Shown here: piece after piece, positions 504 through 25,433 of the stretch | Layout of the letters: each line of letters starts with the position of its first letter | Numbering within the stretch: position 1 is the stretch's first letter | Origin: Schmidtea polychroa | Taxonomy: Eukaryota | Length of the DNA: 64,000 bases | Assembly (NCBI GenBank): GCA_044892525.1 | Contig: CM097885.1 | Location: 14,262,001-14,326,000, forward strand | Direction: 5' to 3' | Program-made: the position numbers and the translations under genes | Notes under the pieces: model-generated | What the model was told of the DNA's origin: nothing | Databases searched by the model: none | What the model saw: only the letters and a program-made list of their open reading frames with translations

Positions 504-1194
504 ATGGTATATGAAGAAAGATTAGCACTTTTAAAAAAATTACAATCAGAACAAGATAAATATAATAAAAAAGATACAACTCAACATGCTGAATCTATAA
601 TATTAAATGAGGTAATAACACAACAACAGGGGCCAACAATTAAAGCTATAAAAGAGTTGGAAGATTTCAATGAGCAAGCAAAATTTAAAGAGTTAGAAGA
701 TAAAAAACAAAAAATAAAAGAACTAGAGTGGCAGGATAAAGAAAAAGAATCCAGTGAAAACCATTCTGAAAGTCATTCTGAAAGAAATCAAAGAAAACGC
801 AGAAGAATTTCTAATGTGGAAGAAGAAGAAATGTTTTTAAAAACAAAAGCTCTTAAAGTTGATCCTAAAATTAGAGATGATTTACCTCCTTCAATTAGAC
901 CCACATTTAATACTAATACTGAAGGATATCAAATAATAACAATTAATAAACAAAACTTTACTTTATATTCAAATTCAGAAAATAAATCACGTATTCATTC
1001 ACAAAATGTTTATAATAATGAATATTTAGACTTTGAATTTACAGATGATTTTTATAGATTACTTTGTGGATATTCTTCAGATGATGTTGAAGAAATTAAA
1101 AAATATTTAAATTTAATAAAATTAATAAGAGCTAGTTCTAAAGCAAAATATATTCAAGATTTAAAGAATTATTTAAATAAAAATGAAAAGGGTT
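504..1194 (+). pseudogene. Polinton conserved protein, 5' part (disrupted by insertion)
   Basis: The stop at 1194-1196 is created by the insertion junction. Removing 1195-17497 gives …KNEKG-YVVTEG… in frame, 297 aa in total. Confidence 0.85.
1189..1194. repeat. 6-bp target site duplication AGGGTT (left copy)
   Basis: Identical hexamer at 17492-17497. Confidence 0.9.
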
Positions 1195-1549
1195 AGTAGG
1201 TAGTTAGTGGCCTACGGCAGCAATAGGGGGGGGGGGGGGGTAAAAATGTTGCAAACTTTTGATTGCATAACTTTTTCCGTAGACATTTTTTGATTACATA
1301 ATTGTTGCTGTAATGCCCAATGTTTTCTGGGATTTTAAATACAAAATTTTTTTTTTTTTTTTTCAATAAACAAGCCAAGGATAAATATTATTTGGGTGGG
1401 TCTCCTTGGTCCTGAGAATTTCAATAGAAAAAGGTAGTCTTCAATAAAAAAGCATGGATTTTTCACACTATAGTGAGGGGATCTTCTTGGTCATGAGAAT
1501 TTCAATAGAAAAGGTGGTTTACATTAAAAAACGCATAGTAAATTTTTAA

Positions 1550-2320
1550 AATAAAGCAAATTATGGTCCTAAAAAATTAAATTAAAGTAAATGATGGGTC
1601 TAAAAATTTAAGTAAATCAAGGTTCAGATTTATTTTTGAAATAAAGTAAATTATGGTCTAAATAAGTAAATTATGGGCTAAGATTTTTCAATTAAAGTAA
1701 ATAATGGTTCTAAAAAATTAAATTACAGTAAATTATGGTCCAAATTTTTAAATTAAAGTAAATTATGGTTCTTAAAAATTAAATTAAAGTAAATTATGGT
1801 CAAAATTTTTGAATTACAGTCCAAAAATTTAAATTAAAGTAAATTATGATCCAAATTTTTAAATTAAAGTAAATTAAAGTAAATAATGGTTCTAAAAAAT
1901 TAAATTAAAGTAAATAATGGTCCTAAAAAATTAAATTACAGTAAATAATGGTCAAAAATTTTAAAATTAAAGTAAATTAAGGTTCTAAAAATTAAATTAA
2001 AGTTAATTAAGGTCCAAATTTTAAAATTAAATAATCAATGGTAAAAAAAATTTAAATTAAAGTTAAATAAGTAAATTAAAGTAATATTTTTTAAATAAGT
2101 AAATTAAAGTAATGTAATAAGTAAATTAAAGTAAGATTTTAAAATTTATTAACAAAAAGTTGAAGGTGTTTGAGAATTGAAATTTTTTAATGGAAATTTT
2201 TATGAATTATTTTTTAAGTAATTTTTAATGGAAATTTTTAAGAATAATTTTCAATGATAATTTTAGATGGAAATTTTAATAGAATAATTTTTAAGATAAT
2301 TTTTAATGAAAATTTTTATG
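1550..2320. repeat. Subterminal AT-rich minisatellite (AAATTAAAGTAAATTATGGTC-like)
   Basis: Degenerate tandem units; mirrored at ~16380-17140; diverged copies at ~8100-9180, ~9510-10590 and ~50850-51400. Confidence 0.85.
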
Positions 2321-2321
2321 A

Positions 2322-2383
<62 letters not shown>

Positions 2384-2521
2384 TAATATTAATAATATAT
2401 CAACCAAATACTATACAACACATAAAAAATTAACTAAACACATAAAAATGAACTAGACACATAACAAACATAAAAATTTACCAAATAACAAATGTAAAGA
2501 TATAAAATTTATTCAATAAAA

Positions 2522-5500
2522 TTAGTCCTCATCGGACAAAATAACGTCATCGATATCGATGTCATCTTCTTCATTAAATTCTTCCTCATCTTCTCCATCA
2601 TTTTCTCCATCATTTTCTCCAACATTTTCTGAAACATTTTCTGCAACAATTTCTCCAACATTTTCTCCAATATTTAATTCACTTAATCTTACATGCCCAT
2701 ATGCAAGACTAGTATTTTTCCCCACCCAAACCCTTTTGTCATCTTTGTTAGTTAGTGCTATTTTTGTGTTTTTAATTGTAAAAATTTGATGATTTTTGCT
2801 TGTTATTTTAGTCTGAGGAACCGAAAAAATCTGGTTAGTGTTATAACAATCGAGGTATGACTGATGTTTTATGTCACTACCTTTCAATGTTACACCTTTA
2901 GCCTTTTTTGTTTCATCATCACCCAACAAGCTATAACATTTAGGTCTAAGAAAAACCCACTCCTTATATTTAAGACCTTTATTCTCGTCTTTGAACTTTC
3001 CAATGACTGAATCAAGGTTCTTGCTATATAAGGAATGACAACTATTGTAATTGGAAGTATCCAATAAATTATCTCGAATCATTGCAGGTAAAAGAACCTC
3101 AAGTTTGCAGTTAATGACTTCGAGGAAAAAAGAATCTGTATCACCAGCAACGATATTAATTTTACAATTAAACTCATTGCGAAATGATTCCAGATCCTTA
3201 TATTGCAATTCATACATTCTAAGTTTAGATAGATCAAGTACAGATTGACCAATGTAACTCGGTCTATCTAAACATATAGAATCTGAATTCAATAATGTTG
3301 CAATTAAATTATCTGCTATTTTAATAGATTTTTTAAAAGTCGGTTTTGACGAATATTTAACTAATTTACCGGCAGTTGTACAAAGACGAAGATTCATTCT
3401 TCTCTTTAAATTTTCAACTGTTTTGCCGTATAAACTGTTATTTAGCAATTTATAATAATTTTTATCTAAGTTATTTACGCTTTTTGATCTTAATTCGGTA
3501 TTTGTATCTATATATTTTTTAAAAATTGGTGATTGCTTAAATCTTACACCCCTATTTACACGTGTTACTTTAACACCAAGTTCCAAATATAATTTTAATA
3601 ATCTCCAATGAATAACATAATTAGATTTTGGAAGATGAGTTAATAATAATTTTTCAACCTTAGACCCAGCAGGTTTCATTTTTTCTGCAGCTACAGGGAA
3701 ATCATCCAACTTATCATGAAGCTCAGAAGGAATTACAAGATCAACTTCAAGTGTGTATCCATAAGACAAAGATTCAAGATTTAAATTCCTACATTCATCC
3801 ATTATTTTATCAAATCCATCAAGAACCCAACAAAATTCGCCACAAGGTAATGATTGACTTAAAGCCCACCCATAAAGATTATTAATATCTATATAAAGTA
3901 ACTCGGTGTTCTCGTCGGTTTTTACGTAATGCTTATTCACAAAAGTAAGACCGCCTCTTATTCCACCCTCATAAAAGCTAAACATTTCGTTTTCAGTTAT
4001 GAGTTCAATTGGTTCATTTAAAGATATTAATGCAGAAGACCAAGACATGCCTGGAATTCCGAAATAATTCAAAGGCTCTAATCTATTGTGAGCAATTGAT
4101 TTCAACCTAAACTGATGAAAGAAATCAGCCAAAAGAAAACAATCAAGTTTTAGGTAGATCATCATATAATCTAATAAAGTTCTGCAATTAGATTCTACCC
4201 AAATCTCCTGAGCTTTTTCATACTCAAGCTCAGTGACACCCTCCCAGATTGGTGGTAATTCATACGTAGTTTGTAGAACATCTAAAGAAGTGGCGAAATT
4301 ATAAGGGAAGATTCCTTTTTCACATACTATGGTGCCAGAAAAAGCAGAATTAGTAAAAGGCAAAGAATTCAAAGTTTTGACTGCTTTAGCCAAAGAATCA
4401 TTGACAAATTGATATGAATCAATGAATCTTATGCTAATTTTGCCTAAATGAGCAATCAAAGATATAAATTTTTCCGTAGTTATTGGGATGCACCCTAAAT
4501 TCCAATTTTTAAATTTATTTAATCCATATTTAAGTATATGATGCATATCGTATCCCTTCAAGTTGTGAAATACGATAGGCAAAATTTTATTTATTTTTCT
4601 ATTTACGTTACATGTGCTACAAGCTGCACCCAAGTATTTGCCCGTAAAATGATCGTGATCTCTAACAGGATCCACGATAGATTTCAAACAAAGATAACAA
4701 ACCGTTGAATTAATGAATTGTTGTTGCTCAATTTTAGTTAATTTAATCATTGGTTTCCTACCCATTTTATAATAAAAAGGAAGAACCTTATTTAATGCTA
4801 TATCCTCTATAGCACTTAAAAAACTCTCGACGCAATCTAAACCTATAAACTGTTGATAGGATTTAGATCCGTCAAAGTTATTTACTAGTAAAAGACCAGC
4901 AGATATTGGCATGTGTCGCTGAAAATGATCATTATCACAAGGTAAAATAGCCTCAAAATCGGCATAAACTACGAAAGGAGGAGTTACTGTTTTCGACCAG
5001 TCAGTAAACTGTAAGAATTTATTTTGAGGGAAAGTATAAAGAGTTGTTCCTAATTGATTGCGTTTGCATAATATTTCATGTTTTTCTAGTGCGTTTCTAT
5101 TATTAAACCCATTCAAACACCGATGGCACCATAATGAACGTATGCGTGTAGGACAACTAGTGTTTATGTGGCAATTCAGTAACCTATTTAAATTGCTTAT
5201 AGCAATGTAATGGAAATTGTTCCCTTTATTTAATAATAGTAAATTAATTACTGTTCCATTTAAAACTTTGGAACGATGTATAATGTCTAAATGGGGGTGT
5301 TTTAAAACGTAATTATCTATTAATTGTTTGTTATGGTCATAAGAAAAAACATTAATTATTAAACCAGGATTTTTGGCCTCGAATTTTCTAATATCTTTTA
5401 ATTTCATTGGTAAGTCTAATGGATTATATATTAACTCAGATAAATTATAACTAGATGTCCTATTTCTAGCATAACTACTAACCTCATCATATTTTAAAAT

Positions 5501-6925
5501 AGCTAAAATGCTATATAAAAAACACGAATCATCGGTGTTTTTTACATTAATTAAACAATATTTATTTTTTAGACAAGTAGGTAGTTCAATGAAACTCCTA
5601 CCACTTAATCTACTTAGCCTACTTATCTTTGTTATGGTGAAGTGAATTTCAGTTATTTTTTTTATGATCCAGCTACTTCCTAACTCTGTGATATTACTTA
5701 TTTTCTCGTTTAGTTCCCTAATGCCTTCGTCAAAAAATGAGGCAGTTAAAGGTTTTGCGTAATTCGAAATATTATTAACCTTTATTTCCCCGTCTTTTTC
5801 AAATTCGATTGTTATTCCGAATTGAATTTTGACGGAGCCTAATTCGTTAATAATATCTCGTAATTTTATAATTAATTGTTCAGGAAATATTATTTCCTTT
5901 ATATTCAAGTTACTTGTATTTAAACTTAATATTTGATGGGTACCCCTTAGATCTTTTTGTATTATGGGAACATTACCCCCTATTTGTATTATATTTAATC
6001 CATCCCAAGAATCAAAGGAATTGAATAATCCGACCTGGGATTCAACAAAAGGCAATCCGACCTGGGATTCAACAAAAGATAATCCGTCCTGGGATTCAAC
6101 AACCAATCCATCATTGGATTCAACAAAAGACAATCCAGCCTGGGATTCAACCTCTAATCCGACCTGGGATTCAAAAGAAGAAGTATCTAATTTAATTTTT
6201 TTATTTGTATTATTTTTTTCTATAGTTGATGGTCTTTTAAAAACACTATCTTTTTTAAAATTAAACCTATCTAAATGATGTTTATGTTTATTATAAAAAA
6301 CGCTATATGTTACAGGGTCACTAGTCTTACATATGGGGCATATAAAAAAAGTTTTATTATAATATTTTTTCGTGTAATAATTCTCCATTATAGAATGGCA
6401 ATTATTATCATGTTCTTTCGATGAACAATAATTTGGGTAAAGTATACCTATAAAATAAAAATTTAATAAAAAAATATATATATATATAATTTAAATGAAA
6501 TATTTTAATAAATGTTTACGCATAAATTTACAAATTTTATTTACTAAAAAAAATAAAAATTTACTAAATTAAAAATATTAACATTTAATTAAATAAAAAA
6601 TTATATTAAATTTCCTTTAAATTATATAAAAAAGTAATCAATACTTACATTGTAAATTTTCATTTCGATTTATTGACACATTGACATAATTTTTCTCTTT
6701 ATTCGTATTACCTAAATTATTAATTAATTAAATCAATAAATAAAAAATTATGTTTACTTTTTCTTTTCAAATTTCCTTTAATCTTCGATTTTAAATTGTC
6801 TTCATTAATATTATCTAAATTAATTAATAAATTAATTAATAAATTAATTAATAAATAAATTATAATTTACCAAATTCCTGAATTTTTCCTCGAACATTCA
6901 TAACGTTTTCTATTAAAGAATTCAT
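2522..6925 (-). CDS. polB: Protein-primed DNA polymerase B, left-arm copy; predicted exons 6925-6871, 6814-6758, 6711-6649, 6447-2522 (1366 aa)
   Basis: 1288-aa ORF with Exo I YADFE, Exo II HNLKGYD, Exo III YLKLD, Pol A DINNLYG, Pol B KLLNNSLYGK, Pol C DTDS and KCY; EndoVII-like DHDH…CSTCN insert; three GT-AG phase-1 introns restore an upstream ATG. Confidence 0.93.
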
Positions 6926-8099
6926 TTTTAAAGGTTAACTATTTGTTAAATGTGACTAATAATTGATTATTGTTTATAGATTATTATTGTTTATAGATTA
7001 TTATTGTTTATAGATTATTATTGTTTATAGATTATTATTGTTTATAGGAACAAATTCTAACCAATCAAAATCAAGGAAGGGTAGGGAAAAATATATTACG
7101 TTGCGGTATTTTAAAATTAAAATTTATTTTAAAAACACATTTTGACGTTAAAGTCGAGTTATGTAACAAAGACATAATAAACTTATTATTTACTACAAAT
7201 ATTTCACCTGTCAAATACCTAACTAGAGATGCTATATATTGATTGTTCATAAAAGCAAACTTAATCATAAATTTCTGTATATTATTTTGTAAATTATTTC
7301 TGTAAATTAAATTTTGTATATTATTTCTGTAAATTATCAAGTAAATTTAAAGTTCTTGATAAGGTTAACTGGTTTCTTAGCTTATGTTTTTTTTTAAAAA
7401 GTTCATCAATGTGTAAATATTCTTAGAAAATTATTGAAAAAAAAAATATTTAGTCAAATGCATTACAAAGTCATCTAAAATTAAACCAATTACTTAATTA
7501 TTAACATAACAGTCATTTAAAAAAAAAATTAATTTTTATTTAAAATTTAACAAATTATCAAGAAATTCAATTAAAATCATCATTAAAACTTTAAATTTTT
7601 TAATAAATCAACATGAAATTCTTAGAAATATGAAAAAAAATATTATTACAAAGTTATATCCTATCACATGATTATTAACCTGACTGTCATTAAAAATAAT
7701 TTTTATTTAAAAAAAAAACCAATCAATTAAAATGCATCCAATTATCAAGAAATTAATTAAATTTATTTAGAACTAACTTAAAATTTTTAAATATTCATTC
7801 AATAAACATGAAATTCACGAAAATGATAAAAATTCACAAAAACCATCAACTCTAAAAAAATAATTACTAATGAATACCTTAAACACCAAAATTTATCTAA
7901 ATAATCTTTCAAATTAATTCATTAAAATTGAAGACAACACGCTCTATTTTGTCATTACATTCAATTAAAATTAAATAAATCAAGATAAGAACTTTGATAA
8001 AAAATATTATTCTAAAATGGTAAAAATTAACACTGTAGTGTTAAATGAAAAGGTAATTATTCTTTAAATCTAATTAACTTAGTCATAATTTTCTTTAAT

Positions 8100-9180
8100 T
8101 TAACCCTTTATTTACTTAATTTAGTCCTTGTTTACCGAATATAGAAGTTTAAAATATAGACCATTGATTACTTTAATTTAAAAATGTATCCCTTAATTTA
8201 CATAATTTCAATCTAAAATTATTTCAAAAAATTTTTTCTAAAATTGTCATTGAAAAATATTTCATAAAAGTTTTCATTTAAAATTTTCATTGAAAAATAT
8301 TTCATAAAAATTTTCATTAAAAATTATCTTAAAAATTATTCCATAAAAATTTCATTAAAAAATTTCAATTCTCAAACACCTTCTATTATTTTGTTAATAA
8401 ATTTAAAATCTTACTTTAATTTGCTTATTACATTACTTATTTAAAAATTATTACTTTAATTTACTTATTTAAAATATTTGACCATTGATTACTTAATTTA
8501 AAAATTTGGACCTTAATTTACTTTAATTTAATTTTTTAGAACCTTAATTTACTTTAATTTTAAATTTTGAACCTTAATTAACTTTAATTCAAATTTGGAC
8601 CTTAATTTACTTTAATTGAAAATTTTAGACCATAATTTACTTAATTGAAATTTTAGACCTTAATTTGCTTATTTATCTTTAATTTACTTAAGTTTAAAAA
8701 TATATACCATAATTTACTTAATTGAAATTTTAGACTTTATTTTAGAACTTAATTGAAAATTTTAGACTTTATTTTAGAACTCAATTGAAAATTTTAGACC
8801 TTAATTTCATGTAAAATTTTAGACCATAATTTACTTATTTGAAAATTTTAGACCTTAAATTGCTTAATTGAAAATTTTAGACCTTAATTTGCTTATTTAT
8901 CTTTAATTTACTTTAATTTAAAATTTTAGACCATAATATACTTAATTGAAAATTTTAGACCATAATTTCATGTAAAATTTTAGACCATAATTTACTTAAT
9001 TGGAAATTTTAGACCTTAATTTGCTTATTTATCTTTAATTTACTTAAGTTTAAAAATATATACCATAATTTACTTTAATTGAAAATTTTAGACCATAATT
9101 TACTTAATTGAAAATTTTAGACCTTAATTTACTTAATTGAAAATTTTAGACCATAATTTTAATGTAAAATTGTCATTGAA
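8100..9180. repeat. Inner, diverged inverted copy of the subterminal minisatellite
   Basis: e.g. AATTCTCAAACACCTTC at ~8370 is the reverse complement of GAAGGTGTTTGAGAATT at ~2165. Confidence 0.8.
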
Positions 9181-9209
9181 AAAATTTTCATTTCTCAGGC
9201 GCTGTTTAT

Positions 9210-9481
9210 AGTAGGTAGATAGGAGCCCGCTGCAAATGCAAGCCTTTTTTTTTGCTGCAACTTTTTTTTGCTGCAACTTTTGATTACGCAATTGTTGCAA
9301 CTAGTTTTTTTTTGTTGTATTTTTTTTGTATTATTACGCAATTGTATTATTTTTTTTTCTAGAATTTTCAATACAAAAAAAAAACAAGTTGCAACAATTG
9401 CGCAATCAAATGTTGCAGCAAAAAAAAAGATGCAGCATAAAAAAAAGGCTTGCATTTGCAGCGGGCTCCTATCTACCTACT
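9210..9481. repeat. 272-bp imperfect central hairpin with its own AGTAGGTAG…CTACCTACT termini
   Basis: AGTAGGTAGATAGGAGCCCGCTGCAAATGCAAGCC at 9210 and its exact complement ending at 9481; scattered mismatches inward, then an unpaired loop near 9320-9370. Confidence 0.9.
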
Positions 9482-11730
9482 ATAAACAGCGCCTGAGAAA
9501 TGAAAATTTTTTCAATGACAATTTTACATTAAAATTATGGTCTAAAATTTTCAATTAAGTAAATTAAGGTCTAAAATTTTCAATTAAGTAAATTATGGTC
9601 TAAAATTTTCAATTAAAGTAAATTATGGTATATATTTTTAAACTTAAGTAAATTAAAGATAAATAAGCAAATTAAGGTCTAAAATTTCCAATTAAGTAAA
9701 TTATGGTCTAAAATTTTACATGAAATTATGGTCTAAAATTTTCAATTAAGTATATTATGGTCTAAAATTTTAAATTAAAGTAAATTAAAGATAAATAAGC
9801 AAATTAAGGTCTAAAATTTTCAATTAAGCAATTTAAGGTCTAAAATTTTCAAATAAGTAAATTATGGTCTAAAATTTTACATGAAATTAAGGTCTTAAAT
9901 TTTCAATTGAGTTCTAAAATAAAGTCTAAAATTTTCAATTAAGTTCTAAAATAAAGTCTAAAATTTCAATTAAGTAAATTATGGTATATATTTTTAAACT
10001 TAAGTAAATTAAAGATAAATAAGCAAATTAAGGTCTAAAATTTCAATTAAGTAAATTATGGTCTAAAATTTTCAATTAAAGTAAATTAAGGTCCAAATTT
10101 GAATTAAAGTTAATTAAGGTTCAAAATTTAAAATTAAAGTAAATTAAGGTTCTAAAAAATTAAATTAAAGTAAATTAAGGTCCAAATTTTTAAATTAAGT
10201 AATCAATGGTCAAATATTTTAAATAAGTAAATTAAAGTAATAATTTTTAAATAAGTAATGTAATAAGCAAATTAAAGTAAGATTTTAAATTTATTAACAA
10301 AATAATAGAAGGTGTTTGAGAATTGAAATTTTTTAATGAAATTTTTATGGAATAATTTTTAAGATAATTTTTAATGAAAATTTTTATGAAATATTTTTCA
10401 ATGAAAATTTTAAATGAAAACTTTTATGAAATATTTTTCAATGACAATTTTAGAAAAAATTTTTTGAAATAATTTTAGATTGAAATTATGTAAATTAAGG
10501 GATACATTTTTAAATTAAAGTAATCAATGGTCTATATTTTAAACTTCTATATTCGGTAAACAAGGACTAAATTAAGTAAATAAAGGGTTAAATTAAAGAA
10601 AATTATGACTAAGTTAATTAGATTTAAAGAATAATTACCTTTTCATTTAACACTACAGTGTTAATTTTTACCATTTTAGAATAATATTTTTTATCAAAGT
10701 TCTTATCTTGATTTATTTAATTTTAATTGAATGTAATGACAAAATAGAGCGTGTTGTCTTCAATTTTAATGAATTAATTTGAAAGATTATTTAGATAAAT
10801 TTTGGTGTTTAAGGTATTCATTAGTAATTATTTTTTTAGAGTTGATGGTTTTTGTGAATTTTTATCATTTTCGTGAATTTCATGTGGATTGAATGAATAT
10901 TTAAAAATTTTAAGTTAGTTCTAAATAAATTTAATTAATTTCTTGATAATTGGATGCATTTTAATTGATTGGTTTTTTTTTTAAATAAAAATTATTTTTA
11001 ATGACAGTCAGGTTAATAATCATGTGATAGGATATAACTTTGTAATAATATTTTTTTTCATATTTCTAAGAATTTCATGTTGATTTATTAAAAAATTTAA
11101 AGTTTTAATGATGATTTTAATTGAATTTCTTGATAATTTGTTAAATTTTAAATAAAAATTAATTTTTTTTTTAAATGACTGTTATGTTAATAATTAAGTA
11201 ATTGGTTTAATTTTAGATGACTTTGTAATGCATTTGACTAAATATTTTTTTTTTCAATAATTTTCTAAGAATATTTACACATTGATGAACTTTTAAAAAA
11301 AAACATAAGCTAAGAAACCAGTTAACCTTATCAAGAACTTTAAATTTACTTGATAATTTACAGAAATAATATACAAAATTTAATTTACAGAAATAATTTA
11401 CAAAATAATATACAGAAATTTATGATTAAGTTTGCTTTTATGAACAATCAATATATAGCATCTCTAGTTAGGTATTTGACAGGTGAAATATTTGTAGTAA
11501 ATAATAAGTTTATTATGTCTTTGTTACATAACTCGACTTTAACGTCAAAATGTGTTTTTAAAATAAATTTTAATTTTAAAATACCGCAACGTAATATATT
11601 TTTCCCTACCCTTCCTTGATTTTGATTGGTTAGAATTTGTTCCTATAAACAATAATAATCTATAAACAATAATAATCTATAAACAATAATCAATTATTAG
11701 TCACATTTAACAAATAGTTAACCTTTAAAA

Positions 11731-14700
11731 ATGAATTCTTTAATAGAAAACGTTATGAATGTTCGAGGAAAAATTCAGGAATTTGGTAAATTTTAATTTA
11801 TTTATTAATTAATTTATTAATTAATTTATTAATTAATTTAGATAATATTAATGAAGACAATTTAAAATCGAAGATTAAAGGAAATTTGAAAAGAAAAAGT
11901 AAACATAATTTTTTATTTATTGATTTAATTAATTAATAATTTAGGTAATACGAATAAAGAGAAAAATTATGTCAATGTGTCAATAAATCGAAATGAAAAT
12001 TTACAATGTAAGTATTGATTACTTTTTTATATAATTTAAAGGAAATTTAATATAATTTTTTATTTAATTAAATGTTAATATTTTTAATTTAGTAAATTTT
12101 TATTTTTTTTAGTAAATAAAATTTGTAAATTTATGCGTAAACATTTATTAAAATATTTCATTTAAATTATATATATATATATTTTTTTATTAAATTTTTA
12201 TTTTATAGGTATACTTTACCCAAATTATTGTTCATCGAAAGAACATGATAATAATTGCCATTCTATAATGGAGAATTATTACACGAAAAAATATTATAAT
12301 AAAACTTTTTTTATATGCCCCATATGTAAGACTAGTGACCCTGTAACATATAGCGTTTTTTATAATAAACATAAACATCATTTAGATAGGTTTAATTTTA
12401 AAAAAGATAGTGTTTTTAAAAGACCATCAACTATAGAAAAAAATAATACAAATAAAAAAATTAAATTAGATACTTCTTCTTTTGAATCCCAGGTCGGATT
12501 AGAGGTTGAATCCCAGGCTGGATTGTCTTTTGTTGAATCCAATGATGGATTGGTTGTTGAATCCCAGGACGGATTATCTTTTGTTGAATCCCAGGTCGGA
12601 TTGCCTTTTGTTGAATCCCAGGTCGGATTATTCAATTCCTTTGATTCTTGGGATGGATTAAATATAATACAAATAGGGGGTAATGTTCCCATAATACAAA
12701 AAGATCTAAGGGGTACCCATCAAATATTAAGTTTAAATACAAGTAACTTGAATATAAAGGAAATAATATTTCCTGAACAATTAATTATAAAATTACGAGA
12801 TATTATTAACGAATTAGGCTCCGTCAAAATTCAATTCGGAATAACAATCGAATTTGAAAAAGACGGGGAAATAAAGGTTAATAATATTTCGAATTACGCA
12901 AAACCTTTAACTGCCTCATTTTTTGACGAAGGCATTAGGGAACTAAACGAGAAAATAAGTAATATCACAGAGTTAGGAAGTAGCTGGATCATAAAAAAAA
13001 TAACTGAAATTCACTTCACCATAACAAAGATAAGTAGGCTAAGTAGATTAAGTGGTAGGAGTTTCATTGAACTACCTACTTGTCTAAAAAATAAATATTG
13101 TTTAATTAATGTAAAAAACACCGATGATTCGTGTTTTTTATATAGCATTTTAGCTATTTTAAAATATGATGAGGTTAGTAGTTATGCTAGAAATAGGACA
13201 TCTAGTTATAATTTATCTGAGTTAATATATAATCCATTAGACTTACCAATGAAATTAAAAGATATTAGAAAATTCGAGGCCAAAAATCCTGGTTTAATAA
13301 TTAATGTTTTTTCTTATGACCATAACAAACAATTAATAGATAATTACGTTTTAAAACACCCCCATTTAGACATTATACATCGTTCCAAAGTTTTAAATGG
13401 AACAGTAATTAATTTACTATTATTAAATAAAGGGAACAATTTCCATTACATTGCTATAAGCAATTTAAATAGGTTACTGAATTGCCACATAAACACTAGT
13501 TGTCCTACACGCATACGTTCATTATGGTGCCATCGGTGTTTGAATGGGTTTAATAATAGAAACGCACTAGAAAAACATGAAATATTATGCAAACGCAATC
13601 AATTAGGAACAACTCTTTATACTTTCCCTCAAAATAAATTCTTACAGTTTACTGACTGGTCGAAAACAGTAACTCCTCCTTTCGTAGTTTATGCCGATTT
13701 TGAGGCTATTTTACCTTGTGATAATGATCATTTTCAGCGACACATGCCAATATCTGCTGGTCTTTTACTAGTAAATAACTTTGACGGATCTAAATCCTAT
13801 CAACAGTTTATAGGTTTAGATTGCGTCGAGAGTTTTTTAAGTGCTATAGAGGATATAGCATTAAATAAGGTTCTTCCTTTTTATTATAAAATGGGTAGGA
13901 AACCAATGATTAAATTAACTAAAATTGAGCAACAACAATTCATTAATTCAACGGTTTGTTATCTTTGTTTGAAATCTATCGTGGATCCTGTTAGAGATCA
14001 CGATCATTTTACGGGCAAATACTTGGGTGCAGCTTGTAGCACATGTAACGTAAATAGAAAAATAAATAAAATTTTGCCTATCGTATTTCACAACTTGAAG
14101 GGATACGATATGCATCATATACTTAAATATGGATTAAATAAATTTAAAAATTGGAATTTAGGGTGCATCCCAATAACTACGGAAAAATTTATATCTTTGA
14201 TTGCTCATTTAGGCAAAATTAGCATAAGATTCATTGATTCATATCAATTTGTCAATGATTCTTTGGCTAAAGCAGTCAAAACTTTGAATTCTTTGCCTTT
14301 TACTAATTCTGCTTTTTCTGGCACCATAGTATGTGAAAAAGGAATCTTCCCTTATAATTTCGCCACTTCTTTAGATGTTCTACAAACTACGTATGAATTA
14401 CCACCAATCTGGGAGGGTGTCACTGAGCTTGAGTATGAAAAAGCTCAGGAGATTTGGGTAGAATCTAATTGCAGAACTTTATTAGATTATATGATGATCT
14501 ACCTAAAACTTGATTGTTTTCTTTTGGCTGATTTCTTTCATCAGTTTAGGTTGAAATCAATTGCTCACAATAGATTAGAGCCTTTGAATTATTTCGGAAT
14601 TCCAGGCATGTCTTGGTCTTCTGCATTAATATCTTTAAATGAACCAATTGAACTCATAACTGAAAACGAAATGTTTAGCTTTTATGAGGGTGGAATAAGA

Positions 14701-16134
14701 GGCGGTCTTACTTTTGTGAATAAGCATTACGTAAAAACCGACGAGAACACCGAGTTACTTTATATAGATATTAATAATCTTTATGGGTGGGCTTTAAGTC
14801 AATCATTACCTTGTGGCGAATTTTGTTGGGTTCTTGATGGATTTGATAAAATAATGGATGAATGTAGGAATTTAAATCTTGAATCTTTGTCTTATGGATA
14901 CACACTTGAAGTTGATCTTGTAATTCCTTCTGAGCTTCATGATAAGTTGGATGATTTCCCTGTAGCTGCAGAAAAAATGAAACCTGCTGGGTCTAAGGTT
15001 GAAAAATTATTATTAACTCATCTTCCAAAATCTAATTATGTTATTCATTGGAGATTATTAAAATTATATTTGGAACTTGGTGTTAAAGTAACACGTGTAA
15101 ATAGGGGTGTAAGATTTAAGCAATCACCAATTTTTAAAAAATATATAGATACAAATACCGAATTAAGATCAAAAAGCGTAAATAACTTAGATAAAAATTA
15201 TTATAAATTGCTAAATAACAGTTTATACGGCAAAACAGTTGAAAATTTAAAGAGAAGAATGAATCTTCGTCTTTGTACAACTGCCGGTAAATTAGTTAAA
15301 TATTCGTCAAAACCGACTTTTAAAAAATCTATTAAAATAGCAGATAATTTAATTGCAACATTATTGAATTCAGATTCTATATGTTTAGATAGACCGAGTT
15401 ACATTGGTCAATCTGTACTTGATCTATCTAAACTTAGAATGTATGAATTGCAATATAAGGATCTGGAATCATTTCGCAATGAGTTTAATTGTAAAATTAA
15501 TATCGTTGCTGGTGATACAGATTCTTTTTTCCTCGAAGTCATTAACTGCAAACTTGAGGTTCTTTTACCTGCAATGATTCGAGATAATTTATTGGATACT
15601 TCCAATTACAATAGTTGTCATTCCTTATATAGCAAGAACCTTGATTCAGTCATTGGAAAGTTCAAAGACGAGAATAAAGGTCTTAAATATAAGGAGTGGG
15701 TTTTTCTTAGACCTAAATGTTATAGCTTGTTGGGTGATGATGAAACAAAAAAGGCTAAAGGTGTAACATTGAAAGGTAGTGACATAAAACATCAGTCATA
15801 CCTCGATTGTTATAACACTAACCAGATTTTTTCGGTTCCTCAGACTAAAATAACAAGCAAAAATCATCAAATTTTTACAATTAAAAACACAAAAATAGCA
15901 CTAACTAACAAAGATGACAAAAGGGTTTGGGTGGGGAAAAATACTAGTCTTGCATATGGGCATGTAAGATTAAGTGAATTAAATATTGGAGAAAATGTTG
16001 GAGAAATTGTTGCAGAAAATGTTTCAGAAAATGTTGGAGAAAATGATGGAGAAAATGATGGAGAAGATGAGGAAGAATTTAATGAAGAAGATGACATCGA
16101 TATCGATGACGTTATTTTGTCCGATGAGGACTAA
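11731..16134 (+). CDS. polB: Protein-primed DNA polymerase B, right-arm copy; predicted exons 11731-11785, 11842-11898, 11945-12007, 12209-16134 (1366 aa)
   Basis: Translation identical to the left copy; introns of 56, 46 and 201 nt, all GT…AG and phase 1, with no stop in the joined frame. Confidence 0.93.
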
Positions 16135-16321
16135 TTTTATTGAATAAATTTTATATCTTTACATTTGTTATTTGGTAAATTTTTATGTTTGTTATGTGTC
16201 TAGTTCATTTTTATGTGTTTAGTTAATGTTTATATGTTTTGTTATGTGTCTAGTTATTTTTATGTGTTTAGTTAATTTTTTATGTGTTGTATAGTATTTG
16301 GTTGATATATTATTAATATTA

Positions 16322-16371
<50 letters not shown>

Positions 16372-17491
16372 TCATAAAAATTTTCATTAAAAATTATCTT
16401 AAAAATTATTCTATTAAAATTTCCATCTAAAATTATCATTGAAAATTATTCTTAAAAATTTCCATTAAAAATTACTTAAAAAATAATTCATAAAAATTTC
16501 CATTAAAAAATTTCAATTCTCAAACACCTTCAACTTTTTGTTAATAAATTTTAAAATCTTACTTTAATTTACTTATTACATTACTTTAATTTACTTATTT
16601 AAAAAATATTACTTTAATTTACTTATTTAACTTTAATTTAAATTTTTTTTACCATTGATTATTTAATTTTAAAATTTGGACCTTAATTAACTTTAATTTA
16701 ATTTTTAGAACCTTAATTTACTTTAATTTTAAAATTTTTGACCATTATTTACTGTAATTTAATTTTTTAGGACCATTATTTACTTTAATTTAATTTTTTA
16801 GAACCATTATTTACTTTAATTTACTTTAATTTAAAAATTTGGATCATAATTTACTTTAATTTAAATTTTTGGACTGTAATTCAAAAATTTTGACCATAAT
16901 TTACTTTAATTTAATTTTTAAGAACCATAATTTACTTTAATTTAAAAATTTGGACCATAATTTACTGTAATTTAATTTTTTAGAACCATTATTTACTTTA
17001 ATTGAAAAATCTTAGCCCATAATTTACTTATTTAGACCATAATTTACTTTATTTCAAAAATAAATCTGAACCTTGATTTACTTAAATTTTTAGACCCATC
17101 ATTTACTTTAATTTAATTTTTTAGGACCATAATTTGCTTTATTTTAAAAATTTACTATGCGTTTTTTAATGTAAACCACCTTTTCTATTGAAATTCTCAT
17201 GACCAAGAAGATCCCCTCACTATAGTGTGAAAAATCCATGCTTTTTTATTGAAGACTACCTTTTTCTATTGAAATTCTCAGGACCAAGGAGACCCACCCA
17301 AATAATATTTATCCTTGGCTTGTTTATTGAAAAAAAAAAAAAAAAATTTTGTATTTAAAATCCCAGAAAACATTGGGCATTACAGCAACAATTATGTAAT
17401 CAAAAAATGTCTACGGAAAAAGTTATGCAATCAAAAGTTTGCAACATTTTTACCCCCCCCTATTGCTGCCGTAGGCCACTAACTACCTACT

Positions 17492-17497
17492 AGGGTT
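17492..17497. repeat. 6-bp target site duplication AGGGTT (right copy)
   Basis: Identical hexamer at 1189-1194. Confidence 0.9.
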
Positions 17498-17700
17498 ATG
17501 TTGTTACAGAGGGAGAGGGATTAATTAGTGAAGGTGGTAAACCAAATCCCATCAATCTTTTTATTGAATTAAGAAAACTATTAGCTGCAAGGAAAGCAGG
17601 ACATAATAATTTAGATTCTGATATTTTAAAGATTTCTAAAGATTTGTTAAAACAAGGAATAATTTCAAAAGATAAATTTAATAAGTATACGAAGTTATAA
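17497..17700 (+). pseudogene. Polinton conserved protein, 3' part (67 aa plus stop)
   Basis: YVVTEGEGLISEGGKPNPINLFIELRKLLAARKAGHNNLDSDILKISKDLLKQGII…; the LxxLLAxxxAGHN…L…GII C-terminus is a recurrent Polinton motif; in frame with 504-1194. Confidence 0.85.
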
Positions 17701-17722
17701 ATACGAAGTTTTAAAATACAAA

Positions 17723-18187
17723 ATGACTCCTTCAATATTAGATTTTTTAAAAACATTTGGAATAAATGCAAAAACAAATTTTGATTTAAAAGATTATGCA
17801 AATTATTTAAATTTAAAAATTAAAATATTAATGAATGATGAATTATCAAGTCTGGAGAGTCCCCTGAATATAATAATCAATTATCAAAATTCAAATGAAA
17901 ATGGATCTCATTGGGTTTGTATATATAAGAAATCTATCTACTTTGATTCTTTTGGGATTAAACCTACTAAAGAAGTTGAAGATTATCTCTTGGGGGGTTC
18001 TCCGATTGATTCCCCAAATGGTTATACTTTTAACTCTTTACAAGTTCAACCTTTGAATACTAAAATATGTGGTATTTTAAGTTTATATGTTTTGTATAGA
18101 TTGAATAAGGGAGAGGGAAAGGGGCATACGCAGGATTTTGAATCTATAATTCAAGAAATTTATAATGATCTAGAATCTCTACTATAA
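17723..18187 (+). CDS. Adenain-like cysteine protease (Polinton PRO)
   Basis: GSHWVC…YFDSFG…QVQ…ICG, giving the His-Asp-Gln-Cys order of adenoviral C5 proteases. Confidence 0.92.
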   Translation: MTPSILDFLKTFGINAKTNFDLKDYANYLNLKIKILMNDELSSLESPLNIIINYQNSNENGSHWVCIYKKSIYFDSFGIKPTKEVEDYLLGGSPIDSPNGYTFNSLQVQPLNTKICGILSLYVLYRLNKGEGKGHTQDFESIIQEIYNDLESLL

Positions 18188-18235
18188 GGATTTTTACTAT
18201 AAGGATTTTTACTATATGAATTTACTACTAAAGAA

Positions 18236-19000
18236 ATGGAGCTTCACAACCCTCCGGAAGATAATTTAAAAAAAATGGTAAACATAATGTCAGATAAATA
18301 TTCAAGAACTTTATCTATAAATTCAAAAGAATCAGACTTTACTATAAACTTTCAAGATTCAATTAAATTAGATCAAAATTTAAATTATGAATTGGGGCTA
18401 TTATGGTTTTGTGCTTATAATACTATTTTTAATATAACTAAAGATAATAATAAATTTACTATTCAAACTCGTGATGGGCATAAACCAGAAATTATAACAA
18501 TAGAACCTGGGGCATATGAGATAAAAGATTTAAATGATATACTTTCTAAAAAAACAAATGAAGGTATTAAAATTAAAATGGATATACCAACTTCAAAATG
18601 TGTAATGACTTTGAAGAATATAAAAATTAGTTTTTTAGATAATTGTTTCTTTCACACAGTTTTAGGATTTAAACCTATGGATATAACAATAAAAGAAGAT
18701 AAAATAATAACATCAGAACATATTATAAAAATAATAAATACAAACACAATAAATATTCATTGCGATTGTATAACAGGTTCTTATAATAATGGTAAACAAA
18801 CAAATGTTTTATATTCCTTTCCCTCAAACACAGTTCCTATGGGATATAAAATAGTTGAAAGAATGAATCCTCCAAATTATTTACCTTTATGTAGAAAATA
18901 TATAATGGATATTAATTTTAAAATTCTTAATCAAGAAGGAGAATTGATTGATTTTAATGGAGAAGAGATTTCAATGTATTTACATTTGAAACAGGTTTGA
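18236..19000 (+). CDS. Minor capsid protein (penton, single jelly-roll)
   Basis: YELGL…YNTIFNI…PGAYEI…INIHCDCITGSYNNG…LYSF…GYKIVE…YLPL…IDFNGE pattern of Polinton minor capsid proteins; adjacent to the protease. Confidence 0.8.
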   Translation: MELHNPPEDNLKKMVNIMSDKYSRTLSINSKESDFTINFQDSIKLDQNLNYELGLLWFCAYNTIFNITKDNNKFTIQTRDGHKPEIITIEPGAYEIKDLNDILSKKTNEGIKIKMDIPTSKCVMTLKNIKISFLDNCFFHTVLGFKPMDITIKEDKIITSEHIIKIINTNTINIHCDCITGSYNNGKQTNVLYSFPSNTVPMGYKIVERMNPPNYLPLCRKYIMDINFKILNQEGELIDFNGEEISMYLHLKQV

Positions 19001-19024
19001 AGATTCATTTTAAATTATTAATAA

Positions 19025-20035
19025 ATGAGTTCTTATATTCCATGTAATAGAGGTGGTGGAACAATAAAAACAGGGTTTAATACAGAAGAAATATTAACTT
19101 TAACAGAAAATAAATATATTAATGAAAGAGGTGATTCAATGAAGGGTGATTTAATTTTAAATGGACACAAGATAAAAGAATTATCTTTTCCAACTGATGA
19201 AGCTGATGCAGTTAATAAGAAATATGTAGATGGTGTTAAAAAATATACTGATTTAACAACAACAAGAATTGAAAGTTCATTAACAACAAAAATTGATTCA
19301 ATGGAATCAAAGCTTAATAATATCGAACAACGATTTAATGATAAATTTGACAAGTTACAAAGTCTGTTAACTGAACAAGTTGTAAAGTTAAATACTGCTA
19401 TATTAAATTCTAAAGATAAACAAATTATGAATACTAAATTTAATACAATATATAAAATAATAAATGAGATGATTACATCATTTAATAAAAGAATTTCAAA
19501 TTTAGAGTCTCATGGAACACACATTAACACCACACATAGTATTAGAAAAAGAGCTGCTGAATTAGAACAGAATAAAACATTATTACCCCATACATATAAA
19601 CATTTTATAGAACCAAGTTTAATAACAACAAACAGTAAAGAATGGGGTGTTTTTATGGTTGTAAAAATTATTGATCCTTATTTCTTTTTGTTTGATGATG
19701 ATAATGAAAGAATGAAATGGTTTGTGAAATGTGATTATAATAGTAAGCTTGAAAAGGGTGATGTTATAATGACTAGTTATGATTTACCACACGGAGATTG
19801 GTATGTTAATACTCATTCACATGGACTACATAAAGTTAAAAGTAAGAATATTCATTTTTCTAGTTCACTTGTACAATATATAGATTTAATATTTTATGAA
19901 AAAAAGGTTGATGTTGATGAAGTTCGTAAAGCATTGAGAGAATTGTATAAAGATATCCTCTCAACAAGAGTTTCTTTTGATATCCGAGTATTGGTGCCAG
20001 ATGGTGCTCAGAAGAATAAAGTCTTATTTTTTTAA
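19025..20035 (+). CDS. Putative fibre/spike protein
   Basis: N-terminal GDSMKGDLILNGHKIKEL…PTDEADAVNKKYVD fibre-type repeat, then a coiled coil and an unrelated C-terminal domain. Confidence 0.6.
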   Translation: MSSYIPCNRGGGTIKTGFNTEEILTLTENKYINERGDSMKGDLILNGHKIKELSFPTDEADAVNKKYVDGVKKYTDLTTTRIESSLTTKIDSMESKLNNIEQRFNDKFDKLQSLLTEQVVKLNTAILNSKDKQIMNTKFNTIYKIINEMITSFNKRISNLESHGTHINTTHSIRKRAAELEQNKTLLPHTYKHFIEPSLITTNSKEWGVFMVVKIIDPYFFLFDDDNERMKWFVKCDYNSKLEKGDVIMTSYDLPHGDWYVNTHSHGLHKVKSKNIHFSSSLVQYIDLIFYEKKVDVDEVRKALRELYKDILSTRVSFDIRVLVPDGAQKNKVLFF

Positions 20036-20043
20036 TTATTAAA

Positions 20044-20640: not shown

Positions 20641-20726
20641 AATGGGTGTATTTTTAAAAAAGTAGATCAAGTTGATATAGTTGCTTAAATTAATTGTCGA
20701 CATTTTATTATTAAATATCGTTGGTT

Positions 20727-25046: not shown

Positions 25047-25113
25047 TTTATTTTTTAAGATTTATATTATTCATTTTTTATAAATTAAAAATTAAAAAAA
25101 TGACAAAAATCCA

Positions 25114-25196
25114 AACCTTAATAGCGCAGTGGGCTAGACTGACACAGTGGTTCAAAATACTAGTGGTTCAAATCACATCTGAGGTTAGTTTTTTTT
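25114..25196 (+). ncRNA. tRNA-like RNA polymerase III unit
   Basis: A box TAGCGCAGTGG, B-box-like GGTTCAAATC, 7-bp terminal stem AACCTTA/TGAGGTT, ~74 nt, followed by a T8 terminator. Confidence 0.5.
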
Positions 25197-25358
25197 CAAC
25201 ATAAAATAATATTAAAAATTTGAAAATAATATTGAAAATAGTGTGGGTATCTTATATTTATAAAGTACTTGTATATTTTATTTTATTTATTTTATTTTAT
25301 TTTATTTTTTTTATAAATTAAAAATTAAAAAAATGACAAAAAAAAAAAAAAAAAAAGA

Positions 25359-25433
25359 TAGCGCAGTGGGCTAGACCGGCACCGTGGTTCAAATGGATAG
25401 CGATTCAAATCCTAACTGTGGTTAGTTTTTTTT
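25359..25433 (+). ncRNA. Second, diverged tRNA-like Pol III unit (tandem ~240-bp duplication)
   Basis: Same A box, GGTTCAAAT/GATTCAAATCC boxes and T8 run; 5' stem replaced by an A run. Confidence 0.4.

What the first reader, a model, noticed from the sequence alone, without database searches (positions are those of the whole stretch)
1195..17491. 16.3-kb palindromic, polymerase-only element inserted into a Polinton gene: candidate satellite/hyperparasite replicon
Seen: the element is two ~8-kb inverted arms with AGT…ACT ends and a 6-bp TSD, and precise removal restores a 297-aa Polinton ORF. The only credible gene is an intact pPolB, present twice and pointing outward from the centre. Known: AG…CT termini and 6-bp TSDs are the signature of Polinton retroviral-like integrase, and Polintons normally carry integrase, ATPase and capsid genes with TIRs of roughly 1 kb or less. 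Inference: this is a self-replicating but integration- and packaging-dependent linear replicon that borrows a Polinton integrase in trans. Its polymerase is visibly a different lineage from the host Polinton's pPolB, so it is not a simple deletion derivative.
Basis: partly seen in the sequence, partly recalled or inferred. Interest (0 to 1): 0.95.

Follow-up and report, generated by a model that had tools for sequence, protein, structure and literature searches.

The report
Palindromic polymerase-only Polinton derivative family
A 16-kb mirror-image mobile element that carries only a virus-type DNA polymerase, twice, is real and multi-copy, but it is a stripped-down offshoot of a complete Polinton living in the same animal genome, not an unrelated replicon.

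Summary
Window 1195-17491 is a 16,297-bp near-perfect palindrome with AGTAGGTAG...CTACCTACT tips and a 6-bp duplication (AGGGTT). It splits an ORF of a 15.4-kb Polinton, and its only gene is an intact 1288-aa protein-primed polymerase (pPolB), present twice and pointing outward. It is not an assembly fold-back. The genome holds 13 tip pairs (seven of 15.2-16.6 kb), 39 further copies of the centre, and site-specific duplications (13 of 15 pairs exact).

No copy inspected has integrase or capsid genes, so integration must be supplied in trans. Variant codons among six copies are 26 synonymous to 25 non-synonymous, which indicates purifying selection on the polymerase. But the element is not an independent lineage. 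A complete 16.6-kb Polinton family ("A") in the same genome has closely related tips and a pPolB 92-93% identical in DNA.

New points:
- The two arms evolve in concert.
- The centre is an imperfect hairpin bounded by inner tip-like sequences.
- Inner tips are essentially never integration ends (38 of 40 carry the arm flank).
- Dimer length matches that of family A.

Best reading: a polymerase-retaining, non-autonomous Polinton derivative kept palindromic by replication-linked copy-back. No read or RNA evidence was obtained.

The parts
1189..1194 (.). left copy of the 6-bp target-site duplication AGGGTT
1195..1545 (+). outer terminus T1 (tip AGTAGGTAGTTAGTGG..., G run, unique 351 bp); no special fold
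   Evidence: dG -26.1, z +0.87
1546..2468 (.). subterminal tandem arrays: about 30-bp units (1546-2160), 13-bp units (2178-2330), AAT microsatellite, 19-bp units
2522..6388 (-). pPolB copy 1, 1288 aa, intact
6389..8214 (.). AT-rich non-coding spacer upstream of pPolB. 6389-6470 is shared with family A, 6470-7180 with subfamily P2 only
8215..9159 (.). inner tandem arrays (13-bp, then about 26 units of 29 bp), inverted relative to 1546-2330
   Evidence: (I5, I12, I16)
9210..9481 (.). centre C: bounded by inner tip-like sequences T2 (AGTAGGTAGATAGG... at 9210+ and 9481-); folds as one long imperfect hairpin
   Evidence: dG -118.6, z -23.7
9253..9438 (.). 186-bp imperfectly palindromic core, the only part not kept identical between the arms
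9524..10476 (.). mirror copy of the inner arrays
12268..16134 (+). pPolB copy 2, identical in coding sequence to copy 1
16256..17140 (.). mirror copy of the subterminal arrays
17141..17491 (-). outer terminus T1, right end (...CTACCTACT)
17492..17497 (.). right copy of the duplication AGGGTT
504..1193 (+). first 230 codons of the interrupted ORF of host Polinton H
17497..17700 (+). last 67 codons and stop of the interrupted H ORF
17498..26300 (.). rest of host Polinton H: four ORFs, pPolB 20727-25046(-) in two ORFs, right TIR ending ...CACTACT at 26300, duplication ATTTTA
26301..33921 (.). right part of outer Polinton X, into which H inserted: pPolB 27584-31669(+), ORF 32100-32921, right TIR, tip AGTAGAAGGATTGGAGCCCGCT, duplication TATGTG

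Best explanation
The element (called P here) belongs to a multi-copy, recently active family of non-autonomous Polinton/Maverick derivatives. The family has lost every gene except the protein-primed DNA polymerase. The basic unit is about 8.3 kb: T1 terminus, arrays, pPolB, spacer, arrays, T2 terminus. It descends from an A-like complete Polinton of the same genome. The integrated form is a head-to-head dimer of two units that share the 272-bp T2 fold-back as its centre, so both outer ends are T1. Shown: the anatomy, the copies, the duplications, the relationship to family A, purifying selection on the polymerase, concerted evolution of the arms, and the absence of integrated monomers. Inferred: (1) integration is done in trans by an rve integrase of a resident Polinton, most likely family A, which recognises the shared AGTAGGTAG tips and makes the 6-bp duplication. 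(2) P is copied by its own polymerase, primed at the T1 ends. (3) The palindrome is made and remade during that replication, either by snap-back of the displaced self-complementary strand or by copy-back through the T2 hairpin. That would keep the arms identical and leave only the central loop free to stay asymmetric.
For: Family and mobility: the exact 24-nt T1 tip occurs 36 times, forming 13 +/- pairs of 8.4-19.8 kb; seven are 15.2-16.6 kb. The 491-bp centre occurs in 39 other loci at 87-98%; 38 of the 39 cover nearly all of it. Duplications were exact in 6 of 6 pairs and 7 of 9 more; of the other two, one has one mismatch and one is exact after an extra ACT at the tip. Two of the nine are one insertion in a duplicated segment.
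Polymerase only. The five other T1-tip copies whose internal structure was read (C1:126.06M, C2:135.54M, C2:149.04M, C1:268.7M, and the two P2 copies) have no other Polinton gene.
Parent: family A copy of 16,607 bp with duplication TTGGTT, an A32-like ATPase, an rve integrase, a probable DJR capsid protein and pPolB. P versus A is 92-93% identical in DNA over window 1679-5988, with dS 0.116. All three Polinton families that carry an rve gene (H, X, A) have AGTAG tips and 6-bp duplications.
Selection: subfamily P1 versus P2 has 96.5 synonymous and 52.5 non-synonymous changes, omega 0.125. Among six independent intact copies there are 26 synonymous and 25 non-synonymous variant codons against 80% non-synonymous expected, binomial P = 8e-7.
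Concerted evolution: within one copy the arms differ by 0-1 nt in the 3.86-kb coding sequence. Copies of one subfamily differ by 3-13, and the subfamilies by about 150. Both arms of one copy share the same stop.
Dimer as the unit: 38 of 40 exact T2 tips carry the arm flank. The centre folds at dG -118.6 (z -23.7). T1 does not fold specially.
Against: No extrachromosomal form has been seen.
The neighbourhood has an assembly redundancy: the same left junction and 1,977 bp of the arm recur 31.5 kb upstream and end at a 500-N gap.
The sampled A copies are 7-8% diverged in DNA from P, so the immediate parent and the actual helper are not identified.
The rve ORF in the one A copy read in full is only 163 aa.
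The purifying-selection signal could partly be imported by recombination with A copies; a cluster of changes at codons 304-307 looks like a patch.
The pPolB distances give P1 closer to A (dS 0.116) than to P2 (0.14), which leaves open whether palindromes arose once or twice.
The P2 centre is 800 bp with direct, not inverted, internal repeats, and a simple copy-back does not explain it.
Why a trans-dependent nuclear element should keep its own polymerase under selection is unexplained.
Confidence: 0.6

Rival explanations
1. Satellite or defective-interfering genome of a Polinton virus. P replicates extrachromosomally and is packaged in helper capsids. Selection for helper-genome length favours the dimer, and integration is a side branch of that life cycle.
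For: Dimer lengths of 15.2-16.6 kb (7 of 13 T1 pairs) match family A: 13 of 21 A-tip pairs are 15.0-16.9 kb, and the copy that was read is 16,607 bp. The polymerase is retained under purifying selection. The architecture resembles a snap-back defective genome (PMC13506859, passages). Family A probably encodes a capsid protein: nearest Atlas clusters carry PF21738 in 14-30% of members, score 0.98.
Against: No particle, episome or expression data exist. Shorter T1-tipped forms (8.4-8.8 kb, 3 of 13 pairs) and short A-tipped pairs (5.0-10.5 kb, 4 of 21) also occur, so length is not strictly constrained for integration. Only one of the 21 A-tip pairs was inspected. The capsid assignment for A is only a lead: hhalign probability 4.8% and model pLDDT 42.
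Confidence: 0.2
2. Static inverted duplication. A single chromosomal accident, or one monomer inserted into another, made one palindrome, which is then merely moved or copied like any non-autonomous transposon with no replication-linked renewal of the arms.
For: All copies share the same asymmetric centre; each locus matches one orientation at 91-98% and the other at 83-91%. That fits descent from one founder.
Against: Arms within a copy are more alike (0-1 nt per 3.86 kb) than copies are to each other (3-13 nt). Subfamilies about 4% apart each have identical arms. A founder event followed by passive copying predicts the opposite. The flanks of the centre are reverse complements, not a direct duplication.
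Confidence: 0.1
3. Assembly or amplification fold-back artefact.
For: A duplicated contig end with the same junction, ending at a 500-N gap, shows the assembler had trouble here. No reads could be laid.
Against: The same architecture appears at many loci with different flanks and matching duplications. The arms in the window differ by substitutions and repeat-length indels. The centre is a conserved, specific sequence, not a random breakpoint.
Confidence: 0.03
4. Independent pPolB replicon lineage (linear-plasmid-like) that merely borrows a Polinton integrase.
For: The polymerase is only 28-29% identical to that of the Polinton it sits in. The best database relatives are 45-60% identical.
Against: At least 57 genomic pPolB hits are 99-100% identical in the 786-aa core, and many are single genes. 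The two that were fetched lie in Polinton A copies: one read end to end, one read over 9.9 kb with its 407-aa ORF and one tip. The tips and subterminal motifs are homologous to A and X.
Confidence: 0.05

Closest known systems
Polinton / Maverick self-synthesising transposons (polintoviruses)
   Same: Protein-primed family B polymerase (PF03175, with the Endonuclease-VII-like zinc insertion seen in animal Polinton pPolBs). 5'-AG...CT-3' tips. 6-bp target duplication. Terminal inverted repeats. Nested among three complete Polintons.
   Different: No integrase, capsid, ATPase or protease genes. By the definition quoted in the abstract of PMC5499653 (search listing), a Polinton encodes both polymerase and integrase. 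The inverted repeat spans the whole element, so the polymerase gene is present twice.
Non-autonomous (deletion-derivative) DNA transposons
   Same: Shares tips with an autonomous family in the same genome. Lacks the integration enzyme. Multi-copy, with that family's duplication length.
   Different: Keeps one large gene intact and under purifying selection. The unit that integrates is a head-to-head dimer whose arms evolve in concert.
Snap-back / copy-back defective viral genomes
   Same: Near-complete self-complementarity around a short non-complementary centre, attributed to polymerase turn-around (PMC13506859, passages).
   Different: Those are RNA-virus products without coding capacity. 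This element is DNA, integrated, heritable, and keeps the polymerase.
Adenovirus defective genomes with large inverted duplications of one end (recalled, not read here)
   Same: A protein-primed linear DNA virus related to Polintons. As I recall it, palindromic defective molecules of about helper length that carry the same terminus at both ends.
   Different: Not chromosomally integrated families. The comparison rests on memory only; PMC354034 was not held.
Foldback (FB-type) transposons
   Same: Long inverted arms built partly of short tandem subrepeats.
   Different: No polymerase. A different transposase and, as recalled, a different duplication length. The arms here are mostly unique coding sequence.
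Parvovirus dimer replicative form / poxvirus concatemer junction
   Same: An imperfect palindromic axis between two inverted genome copies; the axis equals one copy of a terminal hairpin.
   Different: No nickase or resolvase gene. The outer ends look protein-primed, not hairpinned. The resemblance is structural only.

Membership tests
Polinton/Maverick (autonomous) | [quoted passage not shown] | tested here: met
   PF03175 E 2.1e-31, 109.8 bits against a cut-off of 25.8. Groups with animal Polinton-type pPolBs.
Polinton/Maverick (autonomous) | retrovirus-like (rve) integrase encoded by the element | tested here: not met
   No ORF. tblastn with the rve proteins of A, X and H finds nothing.
Polinton/Maverick (autonomous) | capsid and packaging module (DJR capsid protein, A32-like ATPase, protease) | tested here: not met
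   tblastn with H capsid protein, the H/A/X ATPases and the 407-aa proteins of A and X finds nothing.
Polinton/Maverick (autonomous) | TIRs with AG...CT tips and a 6-bp target duplication | tested here: met
   13 of 15 pairs exact.
Non-autonomous derivative of a resident Polinton family | tips and internal sequence homologous to an autonomous family in the same genome | tested here: met
   Family A: tip identical over the first 9 nt and homologous beyond that (by eye). pPolB region 92-93% identical in DNA.
Non-autonomous derivative of a resident Polinton family | mobilised in trans by that family's integrase | not testable with these tools
   Inferred from the shared tips and the 6-bp duplications of the rve-bearing families H, X and A.
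Snap-back defective or satellite genome | whole-length self-complementarity around a short unpaired centre | tested here: met
Snap-back defective or satellite genome | exists and replicates as a free molecule and is packaged by a helper | not testable with these tools
   No read or particle data. The length match is only suggestive.
Foldback transposons | arms made of tandem subrepeats with little unique sequence; own or FB-type transposase | tested here: not met
   Subrepeats fill about 1.8 kb of each 8-kb arm. The rest is unique sequence and the polymerase gene.
Linear pPolB plasmids | extrachromosomal linear DNA with TIRs and terminal protein, not integrated | tested here: not met
   All copies seen are chromosomal with target duplications. 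A free form was not tested.

The most novel reading that the evidence does not exclude
P is the integrated stage of a snap-back, polymerase-only satellite of an animal Polinton virus. It replicates as free linear DNA by protein priming at its T1 ends and turns around at a T2 hairpin, which renews both arms each cycle. It is held at helper-genome length because it is encapsidated in the helper's capsid, and it re-enters chromosomes through the helper's integrase. It would then be a natural reporter of the never-observed extrachromosomal and virion phases of animal Polintons.
Probability: 0.2. Interest if true: 0.9.

Novelty: new variant of a known kind. Interest (0 to 1): 0.6.

Why it matters
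The proposed life cycle of Polintons, in which the element copies itself with its own protein-primed polymerase and then integrates, has little direct support in animals. This family has shed everything except that polymerase. It keeps the polymerase under purifying selection and keeps its two halves identical over evolutionary time, which is hard to explain without repeated polymerase-driven copying of the whole molecule. Its conserved hairpin centre and helper-sized dimer give concrete, testable predictions: snap-back DNA, 8-kb and 16-kb free forms, and presence in particle fractions. It also warns annotators that these palindromes are real family traits, not assembly errors. My searches of the held library found no description of a palindromic or polymerase-only Polinton derivative. 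Repbase and subscription journals could not be searched.

Tried and rejected

Capsid of family A: Pfam found nothing for the 407-aa ORF even at E 5. hhalign against the H capsid protein gave a collinear but weak match (E 0.0084, probability 4.8%). The AlphaFold model from a 2-sequence alignment had pLDDT 42, so no fold search was run. Only the Atlas lead remains.

Arm-versus-copy divergence by megablast over 6-kb arms was inflated by off-diagonal hits in the subrepeats. I used the coding-sequence counts instead.

Junction fetches for two short (8.4 and 8.7 kb) copies were uninformative. One had no match above 88%; the other lay inside pPolB at 91%. These forms stay unresolved.

The 19.8-kb copy was tested as a possible full Polinton with T1 tips. 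It is a dimer with a centre deletion and a 7.6-kb insertion without ORFs of 120 aa or more.

The promoter-like scan upstream of pPolB matched chance (13 found, 12.5 expected).

Earlier-findings look-ups returned nothing. Two papers were not held.

Insertion preference for Polintons: of the 27 T1-end loci where a tip was found (3 of 30 had none), 3 are this insertion. Of the other 24 ends, 9 (8 insertions) have H- or X-like sequence within 1.5 kb. With no measured genomic background I do not claim targeting.
Full report
OBSERVATION. Window 1195-17491 (16,297 bp) consists of two inverted arms that the repeat finder reports as four blocks of 99-100% complementarity, of 4589, 1865, 1153 and 407 nt. 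The ends read AGTAGGTAG...CTACCTACT and are flanked by AGGGTT on both sides. Outside the centre the arms differ only by repeat-length indels (7 G, 12 nt of AAT, 49 nt, 34 nt, 1 nt, 5 nt) and by substitutions at three places, four bases in all. Such differences are not expected from a read used twice. Each arm carries one intact 1288-aa ORF, at 2522-6388(-) and 12268-16134(+), pointing outward. Its C-terminal 828 aa match PF03175 (organellar and viral type B polymerase) at E 2.1e-31. Exonuclease and polymerase motifs can be read in the translation; the motif names are recalled. The 3 kb between the gene and the centre has 16-21% G+C and only three low-complexity ORFs of 49-86 aa.

CONTEXT. The window is C1:14262001-14326000 of a 781-Mb assembly with four contigs of 93-272 Mb. 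The closest named relatives of the polymerase come from insects and a mussel, so I treated the host as an animal. My guess of a planarian is recalled and untested. Three Polinton-type elements are nested here.
- X is the outermost, 17.7 kb without its insert. It has tips AGTAGAAGGATTGGAGCCCGCT, duplication TATGTG, an A32-like ATPase, an rve-plus-chromo integrase, and pPolB at 27584-31669.
- H sits inside X, 15.4 kb without its insert. It has tips AGTAGTGTGG, duplication ATTTTA, a TIR of about 1.2 kb, a DJR capsid protein (PF21738, E 1.9e-25), an rve integrase, an A32-like ATPase, and pPolB at 20727-25046.
- P sits inside an H ORF of unknown function.
The two pieces of that ORF are 230 and 67 codons. 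Stop to stop they add to 310 codons, the open frame of most of the 148 other matches listed (of 150; two are this locus and its assembly duplicate), all 98-100% identical. This confirms the 297-aa claim without joining anything.

A FAMILY, NOT AN ACCIDENT.
- The first 306 bp of P match 40 scored places at 97-100% identity (of 1522 first-look candidates).
- The exact 24-nt T1 tip occurs 36 times and forms 13 +/- pairs of 8.4, 8.7, 8.8, 13.8, 15.2, 15.8, 16.0, 16.3, 16.4, 16.4, 16.6, 19.8 and 19.8 kb.
- The 491 bp around the centre recur in 39 other loci; 38 of them cover nearly the whole query.
- Duplications were exact in 6 of 6 fetched pairs and in 7 of 9 more. One of the remaining two has a single mismatch, and one is exact if an extra ACT at the tip is allowed. 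Two of the nine are one insertion in a duplicated segment.
- Among copies read in detail: one is a full 16.0-kb dimer. One is a dimer with a deletion across the centre (13.8 kb). One is an arm plus a 1.28-kb inverted T1 (8.8 kb, one polymerase gene). One is a centre-deleted dimer with a 7.6-kb ORF-less insertion (19.8 kb). Two belong to a subfamily, P2, that is 92-94% identical, with arms matching window 1195-7180 and a different 800-bp centre.
- For five further pairs, the midpoint position of the centre or of the two polymerase genes shows symmetric dimers.
- None has an integrase or capsid gene. tblastn with 26 non-polymerase ORFs of A, X and H hits P only with the ORF that is really the N-terminal part of X's pPolB.

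ANATOMY OF THE UNIT. The tip motif also occurs inside the element, at 9210(+) and 9481(-). Each of 1195-9481 and 9210-17491 is therefore a complete unit bounded by AGTAGGTAG...CTACCTACT. Each unit has arrays of about 30-bp and 13-bp subrepeats at both ends in inverted order, with tip-to-array distances of 351 and 322 bp. The two units overlap in the 272-bp centre C. C folds as a single imperfect hairpin (dG -118.6 kcal/mol against -35.6 +/- 3.5 for shuffles). The outer terminus has no such fold (z +0.87). The perfect palindrome includes the first 43 bp of each inner tip; only 9253-9438 is asymmetric. This is the architecture expected if a unit whose T2 end can fold back is copied through that fold-back. 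It is not what ligation of two units would give, because then the inner tips would abut. Of 40 exact inner tips in the genome, 38 carry the arm flank. Integrated monomers or free T2 ends are therefore rare or absent, and the dimer with T1 at both ends is what integrates.

ORIGIN. It is not an orphan lineage, however.
- A search with the 786-aa core found 57 scored hits at 99-100% identity, of 18,727 first-look candidates; many are single genes.
- One such single gene lies in a 16,607-bp element, family A. That element has duplication TTGGTT, tips AGTAGGTAGATAGT..., a TBP-like gene, an A32-like ATPase, an rve integrase ORF, a 407-aa protein and a 1380-aa pPolB.
- The nearest Atlas clusters of the 407-aa protein carry the DJR-like capsid domain.
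- P and A are 92-93% identical in DNA from inside the T1 arrays to the start of the gene (window 1679-5988, and 87% on to 6470). A second A copy gives 92.8%.
- The T2 tip and its subterminal motifs are homologous to the TIRs of A and X.
- Proteins of A and X are related: ATPase 86%, 407-aa protein 67%, rve 71%.
P is thus a rearranged deletion derivative of an A-like Polinton that kept the TIRs and the polymerase.

SELECTION AND CONCERTED EVOLUTION.
- The polymerase ORF is intact at 7 of the 10 loci inspected. It is broken in both arms by the same stop at one locus, broken differently in the two arms at another, and interrupted at a third.
- P1 versus P2 gives dS 0.14 and omega 0.125. P1 versus A gives dS 0.116 and omega 0.18.
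- Among six independent intact palindromic or short copies, variant codons relative to the window copy are 26 synonymous and 25 non-synonymous, where 80% non-synonymous is expected (binomial P = 8e-7).
- Within a copy the two coding sequences differ by 0-1 nt. Copies of one subfamily differ by 3-13 nt and the subfamilies by about 150.
If a palindrome had formed once and been passively copied, its arms would be at least as divergent as the copies. The arms must therefore be renewed or homogenised repeatedly, or dimers must form recurrently. Either way, the palindrome belongs to the element's way of propagating.

MECHANISM (inferred). All three rve-bearing Polinton families seen here have AGTAG tips and make 6-bp duplications, and P has the same tips and duplications without an integrase. 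Integration in trans is therefore the economical reading, with family A the likeliest helper. The terminal reiteration (A-GTAG-GTAG) is the kind of repeat that protein-primed polymerases use for sliding back; that point is recalled. A displaced strand of P is self-complementary over 8 kb and would snap back with C as its loop. Mismatch correction in that stem, or turn-around synthesis at the C hairpin, would keep the arms identical and leave the loop free to stay asymmetric, as observed. I put 0.6 on this overall account. The weakest step is the replication-linked renewal.

THE SATELLITE IDEA. Seven of 13 T1 pairs are 15.2-16.6 kb. Thirteen of 21 pairs of A-type tips are 15.0-16.9 kb, although only one of those 21 was inspected. 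A dimer of helper length is what packaging in a helper capsid would favour, and it resembles snap-back defective genomes (PMC13506859, passages). It also resembles, from memory only, palindromic defective adenovirus genomes. Against this, short T1-tipped and A-tipped forms exist, and no free or packaged DNA has been seen. I give this reading 0.2.

CAVEATS.
- No reads could be laid, and no RNA holder was listed.
- The same left junction and 1,977 bp of the arm recur 31.5 kb upstream, 100% identical, ending at a 500-N gap. This is most likely a redundant contig end.
- The helper is not identified.
- The P2 centre has direct internal repeats that my model does not explain.
- P1 is closer to A than to P2 in the polymerase, so the palindrome may have arisen once or twice.
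- It is unexplained why an element that needs a helper anyway keeps its own polymerase under selection, when an almost identical enzyme is encoded by A.

VERDICT. P fails the definition of a Polinton because it has no integrase. It fits a non-autonomous Polinton derivative with two unusual properties: retention of the polymerase alone, and a whole-length palindrome that evolves in concert. My four literature searches found nothing like it among Polintons. Repbase and subscription journals were out of reach. I rate it a new variant of a known kind, interest 0.6.

Noticed in passing
G000 C1:14231204-14233680 (L040 1-2477), then N at L040 2478-2977: An exact duplicate (2477 of 2477 nt) of window 695-3171, with the same H flank, the same insertion site and the left arm of P. 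It ends at a 500-N gap 31.5 kb upstream of the window copy. Probably a redundant contig end where the assembler could not pass the palindrome.
   Followed up: partly
L042:9675-10000 (continues into L043), host Polinton H: An ORF next to the capsid gene matches the parvovirus-type phospholipase A2-like domain PF08398 (E 3.6e-5, 24.4 bits against a cut-off of 23.9). That is an entry function unusual for a Polinton.
   Followed up: no
L066:3358-3834(-) and L066:4710-5036(+), family A Polinton: Family A encodes a TATA-binding-protein-like ORF (PF00352, E 8.4e-16) and a small ORF matching adenovirus core protein X/mu (PF05829, E 2e-6).
   Followed up: no
genome-wide; query window 504-1193: The H Polinton family is very large and young. 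All 150 scored matches (of 2830 first-look candidates) are 98-100% identical in protein, and most have the full 310-codon frame.
   Followed up: partly
L035:7272-8073 (C2:8.27M copy, subfamily P2): The P2 centre is about 800 bp. It is bounded by inner tips AGTAGAGTAG... with X-like GGAGC...CCACATATACCCCC motifs, and it contains two direct (not inverted) copies of a unit of about 100 bp or more (extent judged by eye).
   Followed up: partly
L050/L051 (C1:249.80M copy): The right tip carries an extra ACT before the duplication CAAATT. This terminal triplet reiteration could reflect slippage at the end.
   Followed up: no
window 12268-12930 and 16000-16134; other copies: The polymerase has repeat-rich ends: ESQVGL-type repeats N-terminally and acidic GENV/GEND repeats C-terminally. 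Open-frame length varies from 1322 to 1449 codons among near-identical copies.
   Followed up: no
window 60343-62240(+): Two adjacent ORFs with a BED zinc finger (PF02892, E 1.5e-10) and a hAT dimerisation domain (PF05699, E 4.9e-13): a hAT transposase, probably split by an intron or a frameshift.
   Followed up: no
window 40785-41264; 57120-57620; 63196-63980: Tandem arrays: a 60-bp repeat inside an ORF (40838-41248), a unit of about 62 bp, and GT-rich units of about 77 bp with strong GC skew.
   Followed up: no
L001-L030 flanks: Of 24 T1 ends not belonging to this insertion, 9 (8 insertions) have H- or X-like Polinton sequence within 1.5 kb. One P copy sits inside another Polinton's polymerase gene (C1:126.06M). 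No genomic background was measured.
   Followed up: partly
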